DNA of 39,639 nt, taken from NCBI GenBank assembly GCA_965371875.1, contig CBDVAD010000001.1:1-39639 (forward strand). Direction: 5' to 3'. The position numbers and the translations under genes were made by a program. The DNA comes from an uncultured bacterium (GTDB lineage: Bacteria; Spirochaetota; Spirochaetia; B11-G9). Positions 7,932 to 26,669 of this stretch are shown here, in pieces (the first letter of the stretch is position 1; every line of letters starts with the position of its first letter). The notes beneath the pieces were generated by a model that was not told where the DNA came from, made no database searches, and saw only the letters and a list, made by a program, of their open reading frames with translations.

Positions 7932-9335
7932 ATGAATAATAACCTATTATTAAAAGCAGTAATAAATGCTGCAATATTGGGACTTATGGTTATGCCAGCC
8001 ATTATTTCAGCTCAAAATATTACAATTACACAGCTTGATTCAAGAGAACTTCTTACATCTTCCAGGATTGACTGTTATTTGAGTATTACGGACAATCAGG
8101 GAGAACCTTTGGAAGATGTTAAGACTGATTTAATCAGGATGAAACATGAAACAGAAGAAGGTATGGATACTGTGGAAATTCTGGATATCCAAAGAAATAA
8201 TTCAGCAGAAGGGGAGATCACATTTCTTTTAGTACTGGATAATTCGGGAAGTATGTATGAACCAGTTGGAGATGGAATGGATGGGGATCGAATGGATCAT
8301 GCAATAAGAGCTGTTAAAGAGTTTCTTGGCAGTCTTGATAAACAGAATACCAGAGTTGGTTTGGCTGTTTTTAATACAAAATACATATTACTTGTTGAAC
8401 CTGACAAGAATATAAAAGCCATAGAAGAGGCTCTTGAAAGAATAGAAAAACCTGACAGTAAGAATGCGTATACCGAACTGTTCTACTCCATTAGTCAGGC
8501 TGCGATGGATATGGCACGATATCGCGGACGAAAAGCAATAGTTCTTCTTTCGGATGGAGAAAACTACCCATACTTCACTATGTCCGGAAACCTTCACCCG
8601 GATTTGGGAGAAAATCTCTATCTTCCTGACGATGGATTGGAACCTTTAAAACGGGAAGGAGTGACCCTTTATGGTATTAATTTTTCAACCGAGAAAGATA
8701 AGTCTCTGGCATCAATCAGTATTGAATCCGGCGGAACAATGTATGACGCAATCACAGATGACGAGTTGTCAGGAGTCTATGGCCGGATTAAAAACCGGAT
8801 AGAAAAGGAATACAGGGTTACTGTCAGAGCTCCTCTTGTTTTCCTCGGATCACCAAAAATCAGCGCTGAATATAAAGCTTCCGATGATACAAAAAGCTAT
8901 TATGCCAGGCCCCTTATGGGGACTCCGGAAAGAGACTACCTCTTTCTGTCACTGATGATACTGCTGCTCTCTTTCGTAATATGGGTTATTTTAATGCTGA
9001 TCCGCTTTGAAAAAACTGCAGACCATGCCGAGCTTTCAATGCTGCCTATGGGAAGGGGTAAACCTTTACAAAGAACCATAGCTCTGACATCTCAAATGAC
9101 GGTTATTGGCGGTTCAGCCCAGGCAGATTTTACTGTAGCAGGAATCCCGAGTCTGAAGGAATCTCATGCTACTATTGTGCAGGATGAAAAAGCAGGCACA
9201 TTTACACTGGTTTCCGACGAGGAAGTACGGGTCAATAACAGGATGACTAAAAACCGAAAACTAAATCCTGGTGATGTTATAAATATAGAGGGAGCAACAA
9301 TTGTTTTTGATGCACCTGAAAACAGTAAACAGTAA
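7932..9335 (+). CDS. Secreted/membrane-anchored vWA domain protein with TM helix and C-terminal cytoplasmic FHA domain
   Basis: The start is taken at MNNNLLLKAV... (signal-like), preceded by GGGAGG. MIDAS motif 'LLVLDNSGSM'. TM segment LFLSLMILLLSFVIWVILMLI. The C-terminus 'MTVIGGSAQADFTV...SHATIVQDEKAGTFTLVSDEEVRVNN' is FHA-like. Confidence 0.9.
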   Translation: MNNNLLLKAVINAAILGLMVMPAIISAQNITITQLDSRELLTSSRIDCYLSITDNQGEPLEDVKTDLIRMKHETEEGMDTVEILDIQRNNSAEGEITFLLVLDNSGSMYEPVGDGMDGDRMDHAIRAVKEFLGSLDKQNTRVGLAVFNTKYILLVEPDKNIKAIEEALERIEKPDSKNAYTELFYSISQAAMDMARYRGRKAIVLLSDGENYPYFTMSGNLHPDLGENLYLPDDGLEPLKREGVTLYGINFSTEKDKSLASISIESGGTMYDAITDDELSGVYGRIKNRIEKEYRVTVRAPLVFLGSPKISAEYKASDDTKSYYARPLMGTPERDYLFLSLMILLLSFVIWVILMLIRFEKTADHAELSMLPMGRGKPLQRTIALTSQMTVIGGSAQADFTVAGIPSLKESHATIVQDEKAGTFTLVSDEEVRVNNRMTKNRKLNPGDVINIEGATIVFDAPENSKQ

Positions 9336-10895: not shown

Positions 10896-11955
10896 TCTAC
10901 ATATAAGACAGATAAGCCCTCTTATCTCTCCAAAAGAGTTGAAAAATGAATTTACAGCAGACAGCAAGGCTTATGAGACTGTCATTCAAAGCAGGAAAAC
11001 AATAACAGAAATTCTGGAACGAAAAGATGACAGAATTATTGCTGTTGTTGGCCCCTGTTCAATTCATGATACAGTATCGGGTCTTGAATATGCAGAAAAA
11101 CTGAAAAAATTATCGAATAAAATTAGTGATGAGATATTTCCTGTTATGAGGGTTTATTTTGAAAAACCAAGAACCACAATTGGTTGGCGTGGCTTAATAA
11201 TGGATCCTGATATGGATGATTCCTATAATATTCATAAAGGGCTGCATATTTCAAGAGAACTTCTTTTGAAGCTGGCTCATATGGGACTTCCTGCCGGCTC
11301 AGAGATGCTGGATCCAATAATTCCACAATATATATCTGATCTCATATCGTGGTCTGCCATTGGTGCAAGAACAGCAGAAAGTCAAACTCACAGAAGCCTT
11401 GCAAGTGGTATGTCCATGCCTGTTGGTTTTAAAAATGGAACCGGTGGAAATTTGAACCTGGCAGTAAATGCTATTGATACGGCTCAGCATCCATCCAGTT
11501 TTATAGGAATAGACCAGGATGGAAATACTTGTATTCTAAGGACAGATGGGAACAGATCCTGTCACCTTATATTAAGAGGCGGCACATCAGGACCGAACTA
11601 CTATGAAGAGGATGTAGAAGAGTCTGTAGAGTTGATGAAAAAAGCTAATATTAAATATCCTTCAGTTATTATTGACTGCAGTCATGCTAATTCGGGAAAA
11701 AAACATACACGTCAGCGAAGAGTTTTCAGATCTGTAATTGATCAGATTATTTATGGACAAACAAACATATCAGGTATTATGCTTGAAAGTAATCTTTTTG
11801 AGGGAAATCAAAAATATTCAGGAAGCCTTGAAGAATTAAAATATGGAGTTTCTATAACCGATTCATGTATTGGATGGAAGGAAACAGAAGAAATACTCCT
11901 GTCTGCAGCGGAAGATCTAAGAGAATACAGGAAGAATAAGAAAAATATGGTGTAG
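10879..11955 (+). CDS. aroG: 3-deoxy-7-phosphoheptulonate (DAHP) synthase, class I
   Basis: 'IRQISPLISPKELK', 'VVGPCSIHD', 'KPRTTIGWRGLIMDPDMDDS' and 'IDCSHANS' are class I DAHP synthase signatures. An alternative GTG start lies at 10870. The isozyme (F/G/H) cannot be determined. Confidence 0.9.
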   Translation: MKALDDLHIRQISPLISPKELKNEFTADSKAYETVIQSRKTITEILERKDDRIIAVVGPCSIHDTVSGLEYAEKLKKLSNKISDEIFPVMRVYFEKPRTTIGWRGLIMDPDMDDSYNIHKGLHISRELLLKLAHMGLPAGSEMLDPIIPQYISDLISWSAIGARTAESQTHRSLASGMSMPVGFKNGTGGNLNLAVNAIDTAQHPSSFIGIDQDGNTCILRTDGNRSCHLILRGGTSGPNYYEEDVEESVELMKKANIKYPSVIIDCSHANSGKKHTRQRRVFRSVIDQIIYGQTNISGIMLESNLFEGNQKYSGSLEELKYGVSITDSCIGWKETEEILLSAAEDLREYRKNKKNMV

Positions 11956-11979
11956 AGACGCCCAAATTGGGCGTCTGTA
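11952..11979. repeat. GTAG-headed REP-like palindrome overlapping the aroG-like stop codon
   Basis: gTAGagacgccc-aaatt-gggcgtctgtac. The TAG stop (11953-11955) is part of the GTAG head. It shares the 10-mer GTAGAGACGC with the element at 12547. Confidence 0.65.
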
Positions 11980-11995
11980 CGAATGGAGAATGGAT

Positions 11996-12550
11996 ATGAA
12001 AAGAATTGCTCTAATTTTAGCCCATGGTTTTGAAGAGGTTGAAGCCGTTACTCCTATAGATATCCTCCGTCGGGGTGGTATTGATGTTGTTATTGCAGGT
12101 ATCGGTGATAATAAAATAATTGGTTCTCATGGAATCAGTATTGAATGTGATACTACTATCGGGCAGATAGATGCAGTTGATTTTGACGGTGTTGTAATCC
12201 CCGGAGGACTGACCGGGGCAAACAATATATCAGAATCAGAAGAAGCAGGAAGGTTCATCGAGAGTATTTATCAGAATAAAAAAATAGTGGCTGCTATCTG
12301 TGCATCCCCTTCAATTGTACTTTCTCCATTAAAAGTTCTTGATGGTAAAAAATCTACCGGATATCCGGGTTTTGAAAATGGATTTAGCGAATTTGTAGAG
12401 CTGAAAACAGATAAAGTAGTTGTTGACGGTAATATTATAACCAGTAAAGGACCAGGTACAGCAGCTGATTTTTCATTTGCTATACTGGAATATCTGGTTG
12501 GACAGGAAAAGGCAGAATCTGTAGCTAAGGCCATGTTATATAAATCGTAG
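11996..12550 (+). CDS. DJ-1/PfpI family protein
   Basis: 'ILAHGFEEVEAVTPIDILRR', nucleophile elbow 'AAICASP' and 'DGNIITSKGPGTAADF'. An alternative ATG lies at 11990. Confidence 0.9.
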   Translation: MKRIALILAHGFEEVEAVTPIDILRRGGIDVVIAGIGDNKIIGSHGISIECDTTIGQIDAVDFDGVVIPGGLTGANNISESEEAGRFIESIYQNKKIVAAICASPSIVLSPLKVLDGKKSTGYPGFENGFSEFVELKTDKVVVDGNIITSKGPGTAADFSFAILEYLVGQEKAESVAKAMLYKS

Positions 12551-12575
12551 AGACGCACGGCCGTGCGTCTCTACG
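12546..12575. repeat. 30-nt perfect GTAG-headed palindrome overlapping the DJ-1 stop codon
   Basis: cGTAGagacgcacgg|ccgtgcgtctctacg, i.e. 15+15 perfect. The TAG stop (12548-12550) lies within the GTAG head. Confidence 0.7.
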
Positions 12576-25828: not shown

Positions 25829-25897
25829 TCTGAAGCAGCATCGTAAATTCACCAGTACTACAGTTATAAGAACCAAAAAAATTATTACAAGTGTGGT
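25829..25897 (+). repeat. 69-nt direct repeat, left copy (flanks the RAYT gene)
   Basis: TCTGAAGCAGCATCGTAAATTCACCAGTACTACAGTTATAAGAACCAAAAAAATTATTAC[A/T]AGTGTGGT. There is one mismatch to 26601-26669. Confidence 0.9.
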
Positions 25898-25914
25898 AAA
25901 GTGTGTGTGGTGGT

Positions 25915-26472
25915 ATGATATATAATCCGGAATTACATCATCGTCGTTCTATACGATTAAAAGGATATGATTATTCACAATCAGGAATATATTTTGTTAC
26001 AATTTGTACAAAGGATAAGGAACATACATTTGGAATTATCAAAAATGGGGAAATAGCTTTAAATAAATATGGGAATATTGTAAAAAATGAATGGATGAAA
26101 ACACCAAAAATACGGAAGGAAATTGAATTGCATAGATTTATTGTCATGCCAAACCATATTCACGGGATTGTTGAAATTATCGATGGTAGGGGCGACCGGC
26201 CGGTCGCCCCTACGGGCAAACCATTCACCCCACCAATGGCAATTCCAGCAATAAAAGAACCAGGACCAAAACACAAAACAATCGGTTCCATGGTTGCCGG
26301 TTATAAATCAACTGTCACAAAACAAATAAATATTTTACGAAATATCCCCTTTGCCCCTGTATGGCAACGGAATTACTACGAACATATCATTCGAAATGAA
26401 GAATCATATTATCGGATATCAGAATTTATAAAATCCAATCCCATGAATTGGCCGGATGATATATATAACTAA
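25915..26472 (+). CDS. REP-associated tyrosine transposase (RAYT; IS200/IS605 Y1 HUH family)
   Basis: 'HRRSIRLKGYDYSQSGIYFVTICT', HUH motif 'MPNHIHGIV' and catalytic Tyr region 'WQRNYYEHIIRNEESY'. It has the internal insert 'GRGDRPVAPTG'. Confidence 0.9.
   Translation: MIYNPELHHRRSIRLKGYDYSQSGIYFVTICTKDKEHTFGIIKNGEIALNKYGNIVKNEWMKTPKIRKEIELHRFIVMPNHIHGIVEIIDGRGDRPVAPTGKPFTPPMAIPAIKEPGPKHKTIGSMVAGYKSTVTKQINILRNIPFAPVWQRNYYEHIIRNEESYYRISEFIKSNPMNWPDDIYN
26186..26213. repeat. 28-nt perfect GTAG-headed palindrome inside the RAYT coding sequence
   Basis: GTAGGGGCGACCGG|CCGGTCGCCCCTAC, i.e. 14+14 perfect. It encodes RGDRPVAP on both strands (see minus-strand track ORF 26059-26274). Confidence 0.9.
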
Positions 26473-26600: not shown

Positions 26601-26669
26601 TCTGAAGCAGCATCGTAAATTCACCAGTACTACAGTTATAAGAACCAAAAAAATTATTACTAGTGTGGT
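26601..26669 (+). repeat. 69-nt direct repeat, right copy
   Basis: See 25829-25897. Confidence 0.9.

What the first reader, a model, noticed from the sequence alone, without database searches (positions are those of the whole stretch)
26186..26213. RAYT gene carries a copy of its own presumptive substrate: a 28-nt perfect GTAG-headed palindrome translated in frame
GTAGGGGCGACCGG|CCGGTCGCCCCTAC lies between the HUH motif (NHIHG) and the catalytic-Tyr region (RNYYEH). It is about 80% G+C in an AT-rich gene. Because it is a perfect palindrome, it encodes RGDRPVAP on both strands; the minus-strand track ORF shows the same peptide. Established knowledge is that RAYTs bind and cleave REP hairpins with a conserved 5' GTAG head. 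Related GTAG-headed palindromes occur elsewhere in the window (2640, 11952, 12546). It is unclear whether the insert is a tolerated loop, a self-regulatory RNA/DNA hairpin or an inactivating hit.
Basis: partly seen in the sequence, partly recalled or inferred. Interest (0 to 1): 0.6.

Follow-up and report, generated by a model that had tools for sequence, protein, structure and literature searches.

The report
REP hairpin inside its transposase gene
A small bacterial gene for a REP-associated tyrosine transposase carries, in frame in a floppy surface loop, one copy of the 28-base DNA hairpin repeat that such enzymes act on; this is real, but it is a published hallmark of this enzyme subclass, so it is an ordinary new example.

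Summary
GTAGGGGCGACCGG|CCGGTCGCCCCTAC is a perfect 28-nt palindrome at 26186-26213, inside a 185-aa Y1/HUH gene (25915-26472, +).

It is a genuine "double-foot" REP. This genome holds 11 exact copies and at least 87 related GTAG...CTAC palindromes, mostly outside long open frames. REP counts track RAYT presence across 41 related genomes.

The insert encodes residues 91-100, in a disordered loop (pLDDT below 50) between the HUH strand and the next helix. It does not lie in a core element.

Quentin, Siguier, Chandler & Fichant (2018, PMC6006769) already describe this. [quoted passage not shown] Their supplement lists this exact 28-mer.

Corrections and additions:
- RNYYEH is the GTAG-recognition motif, not the catalytic-Tyr region.
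- The true catalytic Tyr (YIxNNP) reads Phe here (FIKSNP). A near-identical contig from a public run reads Tyr.
- No REP flanks this gene.
- The same 28-mer sits in homologues from other phyla, once in another reading frame.
- Orthologues show REP turnover in the loop.

Verdict: new member of a known kind, low to moderate interest.

The parts
25915..26472 (+). RAYT / TnpA_REP gene of subclass 2.4 type, 185 aa. The start is ATG 25915 (MIYNPELHH...), which matches homologue N-termini.
   Evidence: ORF list. More than 8000 homologues, several named 'REP element-mobilizing transposase RayT' by their source. NCBIfam NF047646 scores 58 bits, below its cutoff of 80. Foldseek top hit is 4er8_A at E 6e-6.
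26155..26163 (+). HUH motif (H81-I82-H83 within MPNHIHG), on the strand formed by residues 81-88.
   Evidence: H81 and H83 are invariant in alignment A1. The strand E81-88 appears in the AF2 model.
26179..26280 (+). Hypervariable disordered loop (residues 89-122) between the HUH strand (beta3) and the next helix (alphaC).
   Evidence: Mean pLDDT is 45-51 over residues 91-120 and no secondary structure is predicted. Length and sequence are hypervariable among homologues.
26186..26213 (.). In-frame 28-nt 'double-foot' REP, GTAGGGGCGACCGG|CCGGTCGCCCCTAC. It encodes residues 91-100 (G-RGDRPVAPT).
   Evidence: There are 11 exact copies in the genome with unrelated flanks. The RNA hairpin folds at -30 kcal/mol, z = -3.7. 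The same 28-mer is listed for a subclass 2.4 gene in the Quentin 2018 supplement.
26362..26394 (+). WQRNYYEHIIR, the GTAG-foot recognition motif (equivalent to W94, Q95, E100, H101 and R104 of E. coli TnpA_REP).
   Evidence: phmmer alignment to 4er8_A residues 92-122. The residue roles come from PMC6006769 section 14.
26425..26442 (+). Y motif, reading FIKSNP instead of YIxNNP. Codon 171 is TTT (Phe) where the catalytic Tyr should be.
   Evidence: 113 of 114 homologues have Tyr; only the window protein has Phe. Residue 171 aligns to Y115 of 4ER8. A 283-nt contig from public run X1 with only 2 differences reads T26426A, giving TAT (Tyr).
25829..25897 (+). Left copy of a 69-nt direct repeat that brackets the gene. 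There is no flanking REP here.
   Evidence: 1 mismatch between the two copies; no other copy in the genome.
26601..26669 (+). Right copy of the 69-nt direct repeat. It runs into the start of the downstream gene.
   Evidence: In the syntenic locus of G002, only one copy is present, downstream of the RAYT gene.
11952..11980 (.). Dispersed REP of the sister GTAGAGACG... family (GTAGAGACGCCCAA-T-TTGGGCGTCTGTAC).
12547..12574 (.). Dispersed REP, GTAGAGACGCACGGCCGTGCGTCTCTAC.
   Evidence: The same 28-mer recurs in genus relatives G005 and G006.

Best explanation
The palindrome is a bona fide 28-nt 'double-foot' REP (GTAG foot, GC-rich stem, CTAC foot). It belongs to a family that is dispersed through this spirochaete genome and occurs unchanged in many phyla. 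It sits in frame in the hypervariable, intrinsically disordered beta3-alphaC loop of a subclass 2.4 TnpA_REP (RAYT).

Shown:
- It is a member of a dispersed, mostly extragenic family that co-occurs with RAYT genes.
- It lies in a loop away from the folded HUH/Y1 core.
- Almost every homologue carries one or more such palindromes, or their decayed remains, at the same loop.
- REP type is heritable along the enzyme tree, yet it turns over.

Inferred mechanism:
- RAYT-mediated single-strand transposition, and/or gene conversion between REPs, acts preferentially near its own gene.
- Copies that land in this loop survive for two reasons. The loop tolerates any sequence, and two of the three frames of the palindrome are stop-free on either strand.
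- Once a REP is there, its conserved 8-nt feet let other 28-nt REPs replace it without changing the frame.
- The peptide (RGDRPVAPT) is a passenger linker.

In this assembly the catalytic Tyr is Phe, so this copy probably binds REP DNA but cannot cleave it.
For: **Dispersed family**
- The genome has 11 exact copies in unrelated flanks.
- It has 87 GTAG...CTAC palindromes of 26-32 nt, against 0-4 for unrelated control heads.
- Only 33% lie in open frames of at least 120 aa, against 91% of random sites.

**Co-occurrence**
- All 10 RAYT-positive genomes among 41 relatives carry the REP pattern (1-64 copies each).
- 30 of the 31 RAYT-negative genomes have none.

**Loop mapping**
- In the AF2 model (pLDDT 79 overall), residues 92-106 fall below 50, between strand 81-88 and helix 123-142.
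- The top fold match is TnpA_REP, 4er8_A.

**Generality**
- Loops of the 120 best homologues read RGDRPVAPT, VGATGRSPL, RGTMHRAPT, VGAYCNTPL and similar. These are GTAG palindromes read in two frames.
- The identical 28-mer is found in genes of Methylohalobius crimeensis and three metagenomic homologues, once in the other frame.

**Turnover**
- The G004 homologue has the same REP lying between older decayed arms (GCAGGGGCGAT...ATCGCCCCTAT).
- The syntenic G002 orthologue has a different REP in another frame.
- Most paralogues carry decayed copies that have lost one foot.

**Cis preference**
- In 5 of 6 loci that have flanking REPs, every flanking copy is of the same variant as the internal one: C48, C183, C202, G005:C194 and L036.
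- At L039 the downstream copy matches but the upstream copy is a different variant.

**Heritability**
- REP type needs 16 changes on a tree built without the loop. All 200 label shuffles needed at least 49.

**Literature**
- PMC6006769 states the phenomenon, the loop location and the likely neutrality, and lists this 28-mer.
Against: - A 28-nt insertion is not a multiple of three. Simple insertion would therefore shift the frame, so either extra bases come with it or replacement dominates. I could not resolve which.
- No REP flanks this particular gene within 1.5 kb, so a local source is not visible here.
- 28/28 identity across more than 12 phyla, and near-universal presence at one loop, could also reflect selection on the in-gene copy.
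- No biochemical evidence exists for any subclass 2.4 enzyme.
- The tree test is expected to cluster under any model in which the in-gene REP is inherited.
Confidence: 0.8

Rival explanations
1. The in-gene REP is a selected cis element, not a passenger. It could be a heritable master or seed copy that keeps enzyme and substrate together as one transferable unit. Alternatively it could be an autoregulatory DNA/RNA hairpin that the enzyme binds to limit its own expression.
For: - REPs are present at the same loop in nearly all homologues.
- The 28-mer is identical in genes whose proteins are only 56-59% identical and whose G+C ranges from 35 to 53%.
- Internal REPs match the flanking REP variant at 6 loci; at L039 only the downstream flank matches.
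- The hairpin is strong, at -30 kcal/mol.
- REP type follows the enzyme tree.
Against: - Many in-gene copies are decayed or have lost a foot, for example C95, C202, C183 and L011.
- Number, frame and exact position vary.
- 80 of 81 sampled occurrences of the exact 28-mer in other genomes lie far from any RAYT gene, so cross-phylum identity is a property of the REP family, not of the in-gene copy.
- No Rfam family and no terminator signature is found at the site.
Confidence: 0.13
2. It is a one-off inactivating hit, or the gene is a decaying pseudogene. The REP landed by chance and the gene is dead.
For: The catalytic Tyr171 is Phe in this assembly. No flanking REPs are present. NCBIfam scores below its cutoff and Pfam gives no match.
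Against: - The ORF is intact over its full length, and all other conserved residues are present.
- The insert is in a disordered loop.
- A near-identical strain reads Tyr at codon 171.
- The same arrangement occurs in thousands of homologues.
- An intact homologue 68% identical in G004 carries the same REP.
Confidence: 0.05
3. It is an assembly artefact: a chimeric join of two RAYT halves at a repeated palindrome in a fragmented MAG.
For: REPs break short-read contigs. Logan contigs from related samples end at 26181 and restart at 26210. The assembly has 636 contigs.
Against: Both halves are similarly close to the single G004 homologue, which carries the REP at the same place. The flanking genes on both sides are syntenic with G002, which also has a RAYT gene between them.
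Confidence: 0.02

Closest known systems
TnpA_REP subclass 2.4 (Quentin, Siguier, Chandler & Fichant 2018, BMC Genomics 19:475, PMC6006769); equivalent to RAYT Group 4 of Bertels, Gallie & Rainey 2017 (PMC5581495)
   Same: It shares the NH[IFV]H HuH motif and the WQ motif. Length is about 190 aa with no C-terminal tail domain. It has the variable beta3-alphaC insertion. [quoted passage not shown] The exact 28-mer is listed in their Supplementary file 2 for ACL24704.1.
   Different: The host is a spirochaete genus, a phylum their summary does not name. There is no flanking REP within 1.5 kb; 69-nt direct repeats bracket the gene instead. The Y motif reads FIKSNP, with Phe at the catalytic Tyr, in this assembly.
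E. coli TnpA_REP / RayT (YafM), PDB 4ER8, with REP/BIME (Nunvar 2010, PMC2817692; Messing 2012, PMC3479197): subclass 2.2
   Same: It has the Y1 HUH fold (Foldseek E 6e-6). The W94/Q95/E100/H101/R104 GTAG-recognition residues are conserved with identical spacing to the catalytic position. It is associated with GTAG-footed REPs.
   Different: Sequence identity is 17%. The E. coli enzyme has no beta3-alphaC insertion and no REP inside its gene. E. coli REPs are single-foot with bulged stems and flank the gene.
In-frame REP/RPE insertions in unrelated genes (Rickettsia RPEs; GTAG/CGTC REPs inside genes, Di Nocera et al. 2013, PMC3733652)
   Same: A short palindromic repeat is translated in frame in a tolerant part of a protein. 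The same REP families in this genome also occur inside some long open frames.
   Different: Here the host gene is the presumed mobilising enzyme itself. The site is the same loop throughout a whole enzyme subclass, not a scattered set of genes.
IS200/IS605 insertion sequences (TnpA_IS200; IS608, ISDra2)
   Same: It has the same Y1 HUH fold and recognises a DNA hairpin on single-stranded DNA.
   Different: It is not a multi-copy IS: paralogues in the genome are at most 51% identical. There are no subterminal left-end and right-end hairpins bracketing the gene. The hairpin is inside the ORF.

Membership tests
TnpA_REP subclass 2.4 (Quentin 2018) / RAYT Group 4 | HuH motif NH[IFV]H | tested here: met
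   The motif reads MPNHIHG. H81 and H83 are invariant in alignment A1.
TnpA_REP subclass 2.4 (Quentin 2018) / RAYT Group 4 | WQ motif with conserved GTAG-recognition residues (W94, Q95, E100, H101, R104 of 4ER8) | tested here: met
   WQRNYYEHIIR aligns position for position with WQPRFWEHAIR of 4er8_A.
TnpA_REP subclass 2.4 (Quentin 2018) / RAYT Group 4 | Y motif YIxNNP carrying the catalytic tyrosine | tested here: not met
   The motif reads FIKSNP, with F171 aligned to Y115 of 4ER8. 113 of 114 homologues have Tyr. A near-identical public contig reads TAT (Tyr) at this codon, so the lineage meets the feature but this assembly's allele does not.
TnpA_REP subclass 2.4 (Quentin 2018) / RAYT Group 4 | Insertion of variable length and sequence between beta3 and alphaC | tested here: met
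   The loop of residues 89-122 has pLDDT below about 50, between strand 81-88 and helix 123-142. It is hypervariable in the alignment.
TnpA_REP subclass 2.4 (Quentin 2018) / RAYT Group 4 | [quoted passage not shown] | tested here: met
   The REP is at 26186-26213, in frame, residues 91-100. This exact 28-mer is catalogued for a 2.4 member.
TnpA_REP subclass 2.4 (Quentin 2018) / RAYT Group 4 | Canonical REPs within +/-1000 nt of the gene | tested here: not met
   No GT[AG]G[AG]G[AG]C half-site or its complement lies within +/-1500 nt, other than the internal copy. Homologues in M. crimeensis and L039 do have flanking copies.
TnpA_REP subclass 2.4 (Quentin 2018) / RAYT Group 4 | About 194 aa, with no conserved C-terminal tail domain | tested here: met
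   The protein is 185 aa and ends 9 residues after the N175-P176..W179 motif.
TnpA_REP subclass 2.4 (Quentin 2018) / RAYT Group 4 | Curated sequence-model membership (NCBIfam NF047646 REP_Tyr_transpos; Pfam PF01797 Y1_Tnp) | tested here: inconclusive
   NF047646 scores 58.1 bits against a cutoff of 80, matched in two stretches split by the loop. Pfam gives no hit at E <= 0.01. Homologues carry PF01797 only faintly.
GTAG-tagged REP (repetitive extragenic palindrome) | 5' GT[AG]G foot on a short GC-rich hairpin | tested here: met
   The element has a GTAG foot, a 12-bp stem and a 4-nt loop when folded, at -30 kcal/mol.
GTAG-tagged REP (repetitive extragenic palindrome) | Many dispersed copies, predominantly extragenic | tested here: met
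   The 80%-complete assembly holds 11 exact and 87 related copies. 33% lie in long open frames, against 91% of random sites.
GTAG-tagged REP (repetitive extragenic palindrome) | Phyletic co-occurrence with a RAYT gene | tested here: met
   All 10 RAYT-positive relatives have the pattern. 30 of 31 RAYT-negative relatives have none.
GTAG-tagged REP (repetitive extragenic palindrome) | Specific binding and cleavage by the cognate RAYT | not testable with these tools
   This needs purified protein and ssDNA oligonucleotides.
IS200/IS605 insertion sequence | Several near-identical gene copies per genome, bracketed by subterminal hairpins | tested here: not met
   The best paralogue is 51% identical. 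No bracketing hairpins are present.

The most novel reading that the evidence does not exclude
The in-gene REP is not a passenger. It is the selected, heritable seed copy of the family. Because the hairpin lies inside the ORF, enzyme and substrate cannot be separated by recombination or horizontal transfer. A single gene arriving in a new genome could then found a REP family. This would explain why one 28-mer is identical in RAYT genes and genomes of more than 12 phyla, and why internal and flanking variants usually match.
Probability: 0.12. Interest if true: 0.7.

Novelty: new member of a known kind. Interest (0 to 1): 0.25.

Why it matters
The window adds a spirochaete example to a documented class, and it ties a published observation to concrete, testable material.

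Points it contributes:
- A perfect REP sits in a gene that is otherwise AT-rich.
- Natural Tyr and Phe alleles exist at the catalytic residue.
- Orthologues show REP replacement, and decayed older REP arms flanking the current copy, in the same loop.

The biology that remains open is whether in-gene REPs are neutral passengers or cis-acting elements. That question is of some interest for how REP families are founded and maintained, but this locus does not by itself settle it.

A practical point for the scan: several earlier notes call this arrangement undescribed. It is described in PMC6006769.

Tried and rejected
- **Protein and RNA libraries.** Pfam gave no hit for the protein. NCBIfam matched only below its cutoff. 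Rfam found nothing at the palindrome; the only match was a sub-threshold mir-601 hit in the 69-nt repeat, which I take as chance.
- **Terminator.** The hairpin is not terminator-like, as no T run follows it.
- **Public reads.** The runs held only short, low-depth contigs of a strain about 1% diverged, so the TTT codon could not be checked in the source sample. They did show TAT in that related strain.
- **Chimeric assembly.** This was considered and rejected on synteny and on the G004 homologue.
- **First palindrome census.** It used too-loose criteria and gave uninformative control counts. It was replaced by a strict census.
- **Is the exact 28-mer mainly kept inside RAYT genes elsewhere?** No. 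Only 1 of 81 sampled occurrences was.
- **Literature search.** Full-text searching for the 28-mer or its peptides returned only irrelevant hits. The sequence was found in the Quentin 2018 supplement instead.
- **Insertion boundaries.** I could not derive clean boundaries, nor explain how a 28-nt unit keeps the frame.

Full report
**1. Observation**

Window 26186-26213 reads GTAGGGGCGACCGGCCGGTCGCCCCTAC. It is a perfect palindrome of two 14-nt arms with no spacer.
- None of 100 dinucleotide-preserving shuffles contained it.
- By my own arithmetic, a perfect 28-nt palindrome is expected about 1.5e-4 times in 39.6 kb.
- It is 79% G+C, in a gene of 35% G+C.

The palindrome lies in frame in the ORF 25903/25915-26472 (+). 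The ATG at 25915 gives MIYNPELHH..., matching homologue N-termini. The palindrome encodes G91-RGDRPVAPT100. The antisense ORF shows the same peptide, as any perfect palindrome must. As RNA, the 68-nt surroundings fold with a 12-bp stem at -30.3 kcal/mol, z = -3.7.

**2. The gene**

- Pfam gives no hit. NCBIfam NF047646 (REP-associated tyrosine transposase) matches in two stretches at 58 bits, below its cutoff of 80.
- A homology search saturated at 8000 relatives. Many are named 'REP element-mobilizing transposase RayT' by their sources, with lengths of 174-297 aa.
- An AlphaFold2 model built on 65 homologues (mean pLDDT 79, pTM 0.74) has its best PDB match in 4er8_A, E. coli TnpA_REP bound to a REP hairpin (E 6e-6). 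IS200/IS608/ISDra2 transposases follow.
- In the model, the HUH histidines (H81, H83) lie on strand 81-88. The next element is helix 123-142. Residues 92-106 and 115-117 have pLDDT below 50. The palindrome-encoded residues 91-100 are therefore in a disordered loop, not in a core element.

**3.

phmmer aligns WQRNYYEHIIRNEESYYRISEFIKSNP to residues 92-122 of 4ER8, NIWQPRFWEHAIRNTKDYRHHVDYIYINP.
- The WQ...EH..R stretch is the GTAG-foot recognition motif (W94, Q95, E100, H101, R104; PMC6006769 section 14).
- The catalytic Tyr115 is the Y of YIxNNP, and it aligns to residue 171.
- Here residue 171 is Phe (TTT, 26425-26427).
- Among 114 homologues with a recognisable motif, 113 have Tyr. Only the window protein has Phe.
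- A 283-nt contig from public run X1 differs from the window at only two positions, and one of them is T26426A, giving TAT (Tyr). A more diverged contig in X3 shows the same change.

The Phe is therefore private to this assembly. It is either a recent inactivating change or a consensus error. Y-to-F is the classical nucleophile-dead substitution in this enzyme family; ISDra2 Y132F was crystallised, for example 2xo6 (listed).

**4. The palindrome is a REP of a dispersed family**

- The assembly (3.95 Mb, 636 contigs, about 80% complete) contains 11 exact copies. The other ten have unrelated flanks.
- A strict census finds 87 GTAG...CTAC palindromes of 26-32 nt with at most 2 mismatched pairs. 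Unrelated control heads give 0-4, and the reversed genome gives 3.
- The copies fall into subfamilies: GTAGGGGCGACCGG (11 exact), GTAGGGGCGAACGG (10), several GTAGAGACG... types, and others.
- Only 33% lie in stop-free frames of at least 120 aa, against 91% of random sites, so the family is mainly extragenic.
- Among 41 related genomes, all 10 with a RAYT homologue carry the 28-nt pattern (1-64 copies; 16-64 in the seven genomes of the genus). 30 of the 31 without a RAYT have none.

**5. The arrangement is general**

In the 120 best homologues, the stretch after the HUH motif reads RGDRPVAPT (30 exact), VGATGRSPL, RGTMHRAPT, VGAYCNTPL, RGELHSP or GRVQRAPT, often in tandem fragments. These are GTAG-footed palindromes read in the two stop-free frames.

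At the DNA level, the identical 28-mer lies in several RAYT genes:
- Methylohalobius crimeensis (gene G+C 53%), with two further copies just upstream and across the stop codon;
- metagenomic homologues P0012 and P0007;
- P0091, where it is read in the other frame.

Conservation is therefore at the DNA level, not the peptide level.

Eight RAYT-like paralogues in the window's own genome each carry a different REP variant at the same loop, most with one foot decayed. Where flanks are available, the flanking REPs are of the same variant (C48, C183, C202). The same holds for G005:C194 and L036. At L039 the downstream copy matches, but the upstream copy is a different variant.

On a tree built from the non-loop parts, REP type needs 16 changes. 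All 200 label shuffles needed at least 49. The in-gene REP is thus inherited with the enzyme clade, but it also switches.

**6. Turnover in the loop**

- The closest homologue (G004, 68% aa identity) has the same perfect 28-mer lying between older decayed arms (GCAGGGGCGAT ... ATCGCCCCTAT). It is 21 nt longer on the left than the window's version.
- A syntenic RAYT in G002 has the same upstream and downstream genes. It carries a different palindrome, GTAGGGGCGCAATTTATTGCGCCC, read as VGAQFIAP, plus tandem DNNEPI repeats.
- I infer that REPs enter or replace one another in this loop repeatedly. The shared 8-nt feet and the fixed 28-nt length would let replacement preserve the frame. How a first 28-nt insertion stays in frame remains unexplained.

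**7. What is already published**

Quentin, Siguier, Chandler & Fichant (2018, PMC6006769) define TnpA_REP subclass 2.4 (Bertels Group 4) by these features:
- motifs NH[IFV]H, WQ and YIxNNP;
- median length of 194 aa;
- a beta3-alphaC insertion of variable length and sequence;
[quoted passage not shown] They add that the region is a peripheral extension, likely of little consequence for activity.

Their Supplementary file 2 lists GTAGGGGCGACCGGCCGGTCGCCCCTAC for ACL24704.1. It also lists the sister 28-mer GTAGGGGCGAACGGCCGTTCGCCCCTAC and GTAGAGACAAGGCATGCCTTGTCTCTAC, both of which occur in this genome. Di Nocera et al. (2013, PMC3733652) document GTAG REPs in frame inside other genes. The phenomenon is therefore known, and this locus is a new member.

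**8. How widespread the 28-mer is**

The hits came from Desulfobacterota, Chloroflexota, Planctomycetota, Latescibacterota, Binatia, Gemmatimonadota, Acidobacteriota, Nitrospinota, Tectomicrobia, Zixibacteria, Bacteroidota and Proteobacteria. Of 81 sampled occurrences, only one lay in a RAYT loop. Cross-phylum identity is therefore a property of the REP family as a whole.

**9. What differs at this locus**

- No REP half-site lies within 1.5 kb of the gene. Instead, two 69-nt direct repeats (1 mismatch, found nowhere else in the genome) bracket it. G002 has a single copy, downstream of its RAYT.
- The catalytic residue is Phe.
- Neither Rfam nor a terminator scan flags the hairpin.

**10. Verdict**

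The best explanation (confidence about 0.8) is a cognate REP tolerated in the disordered beta3-alphaC loop of a subclass 2.4 TnpA_REP. It would be maintained by repeated local insertion or conversion, together with survivorship of copies that land there.

The main rival (about 0.13) is that the in-gene copy is itself selected, as a seed copy or an autoregulatory hairpin. The frequency of decayed in-gene copies argues against a strict requirement, but does not exclude this.

Novelty: new member of a known kind. Interest: 0.25.

Noticed in passing
genome contigs C210:336, C239:2614, C440:3404, C28:10607, C122:1483 and others (window copy 26186 is the exception): Dispersed REP copies usually have flanks that extend the palindrome with copy-specific sequence. 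46% of the 87 copies extend by at least 2 nt, against about 6% expected. All ten extragenic exact copies do so; the in-gene copy does not. Several are followed by T runs. This suggests insertion into loops of pre-existing hairpins or terminators.
   Followed up: partly
genome contigs C122:1483, C194:1693, C352:1263, C63:3583: Some REP copies are embedded in a longer repeated element (about TTTGGGCGTTACCCCGTT-REP-GACGGGGTCAGGCTTTCC...). This looks like a composite or MITE-like unit built around the REP.
   Followed up: no
window 25829-25897 and 26601-26669: 69-nt direct repeats with 1 mismatch bracket the RAYT gene and occur nowhere else in the genome. The syntenic G002 locus has only the downstream copy. 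The G004 locus (C248) has a different insert of about 1.8 kb between the same two genes.
   Followed up: partly
genome contigs C14:5544, C284:281, C4:16103, C84:8824, C24:6092: Several REPs lie in stop-free frames of 500-750 aa. They may be in-frame insertions in other genes, as reported for REPs and Rickettsia RPEs. The host proteins were not identified.
   Followed up: no
L010 (G019:C3, in-gene): A class-level relative carries GTAGGGGCAACCGGCTGGTTGCCCCTAC in its RAYT loop. This is the window's 28-mer with a compensatory G-C to A-T stem change. It also has the same ATTG...CAAT flank extension as copy C28:10607 of the window's genome.
   Followed up: no
window 25848-25914: A sub-threshold Rfam match to mir-601 (24 bits against a gathering score of 98) falls within the left 69-nt repeat. 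It is almost certainly chance.
   Followed up: no
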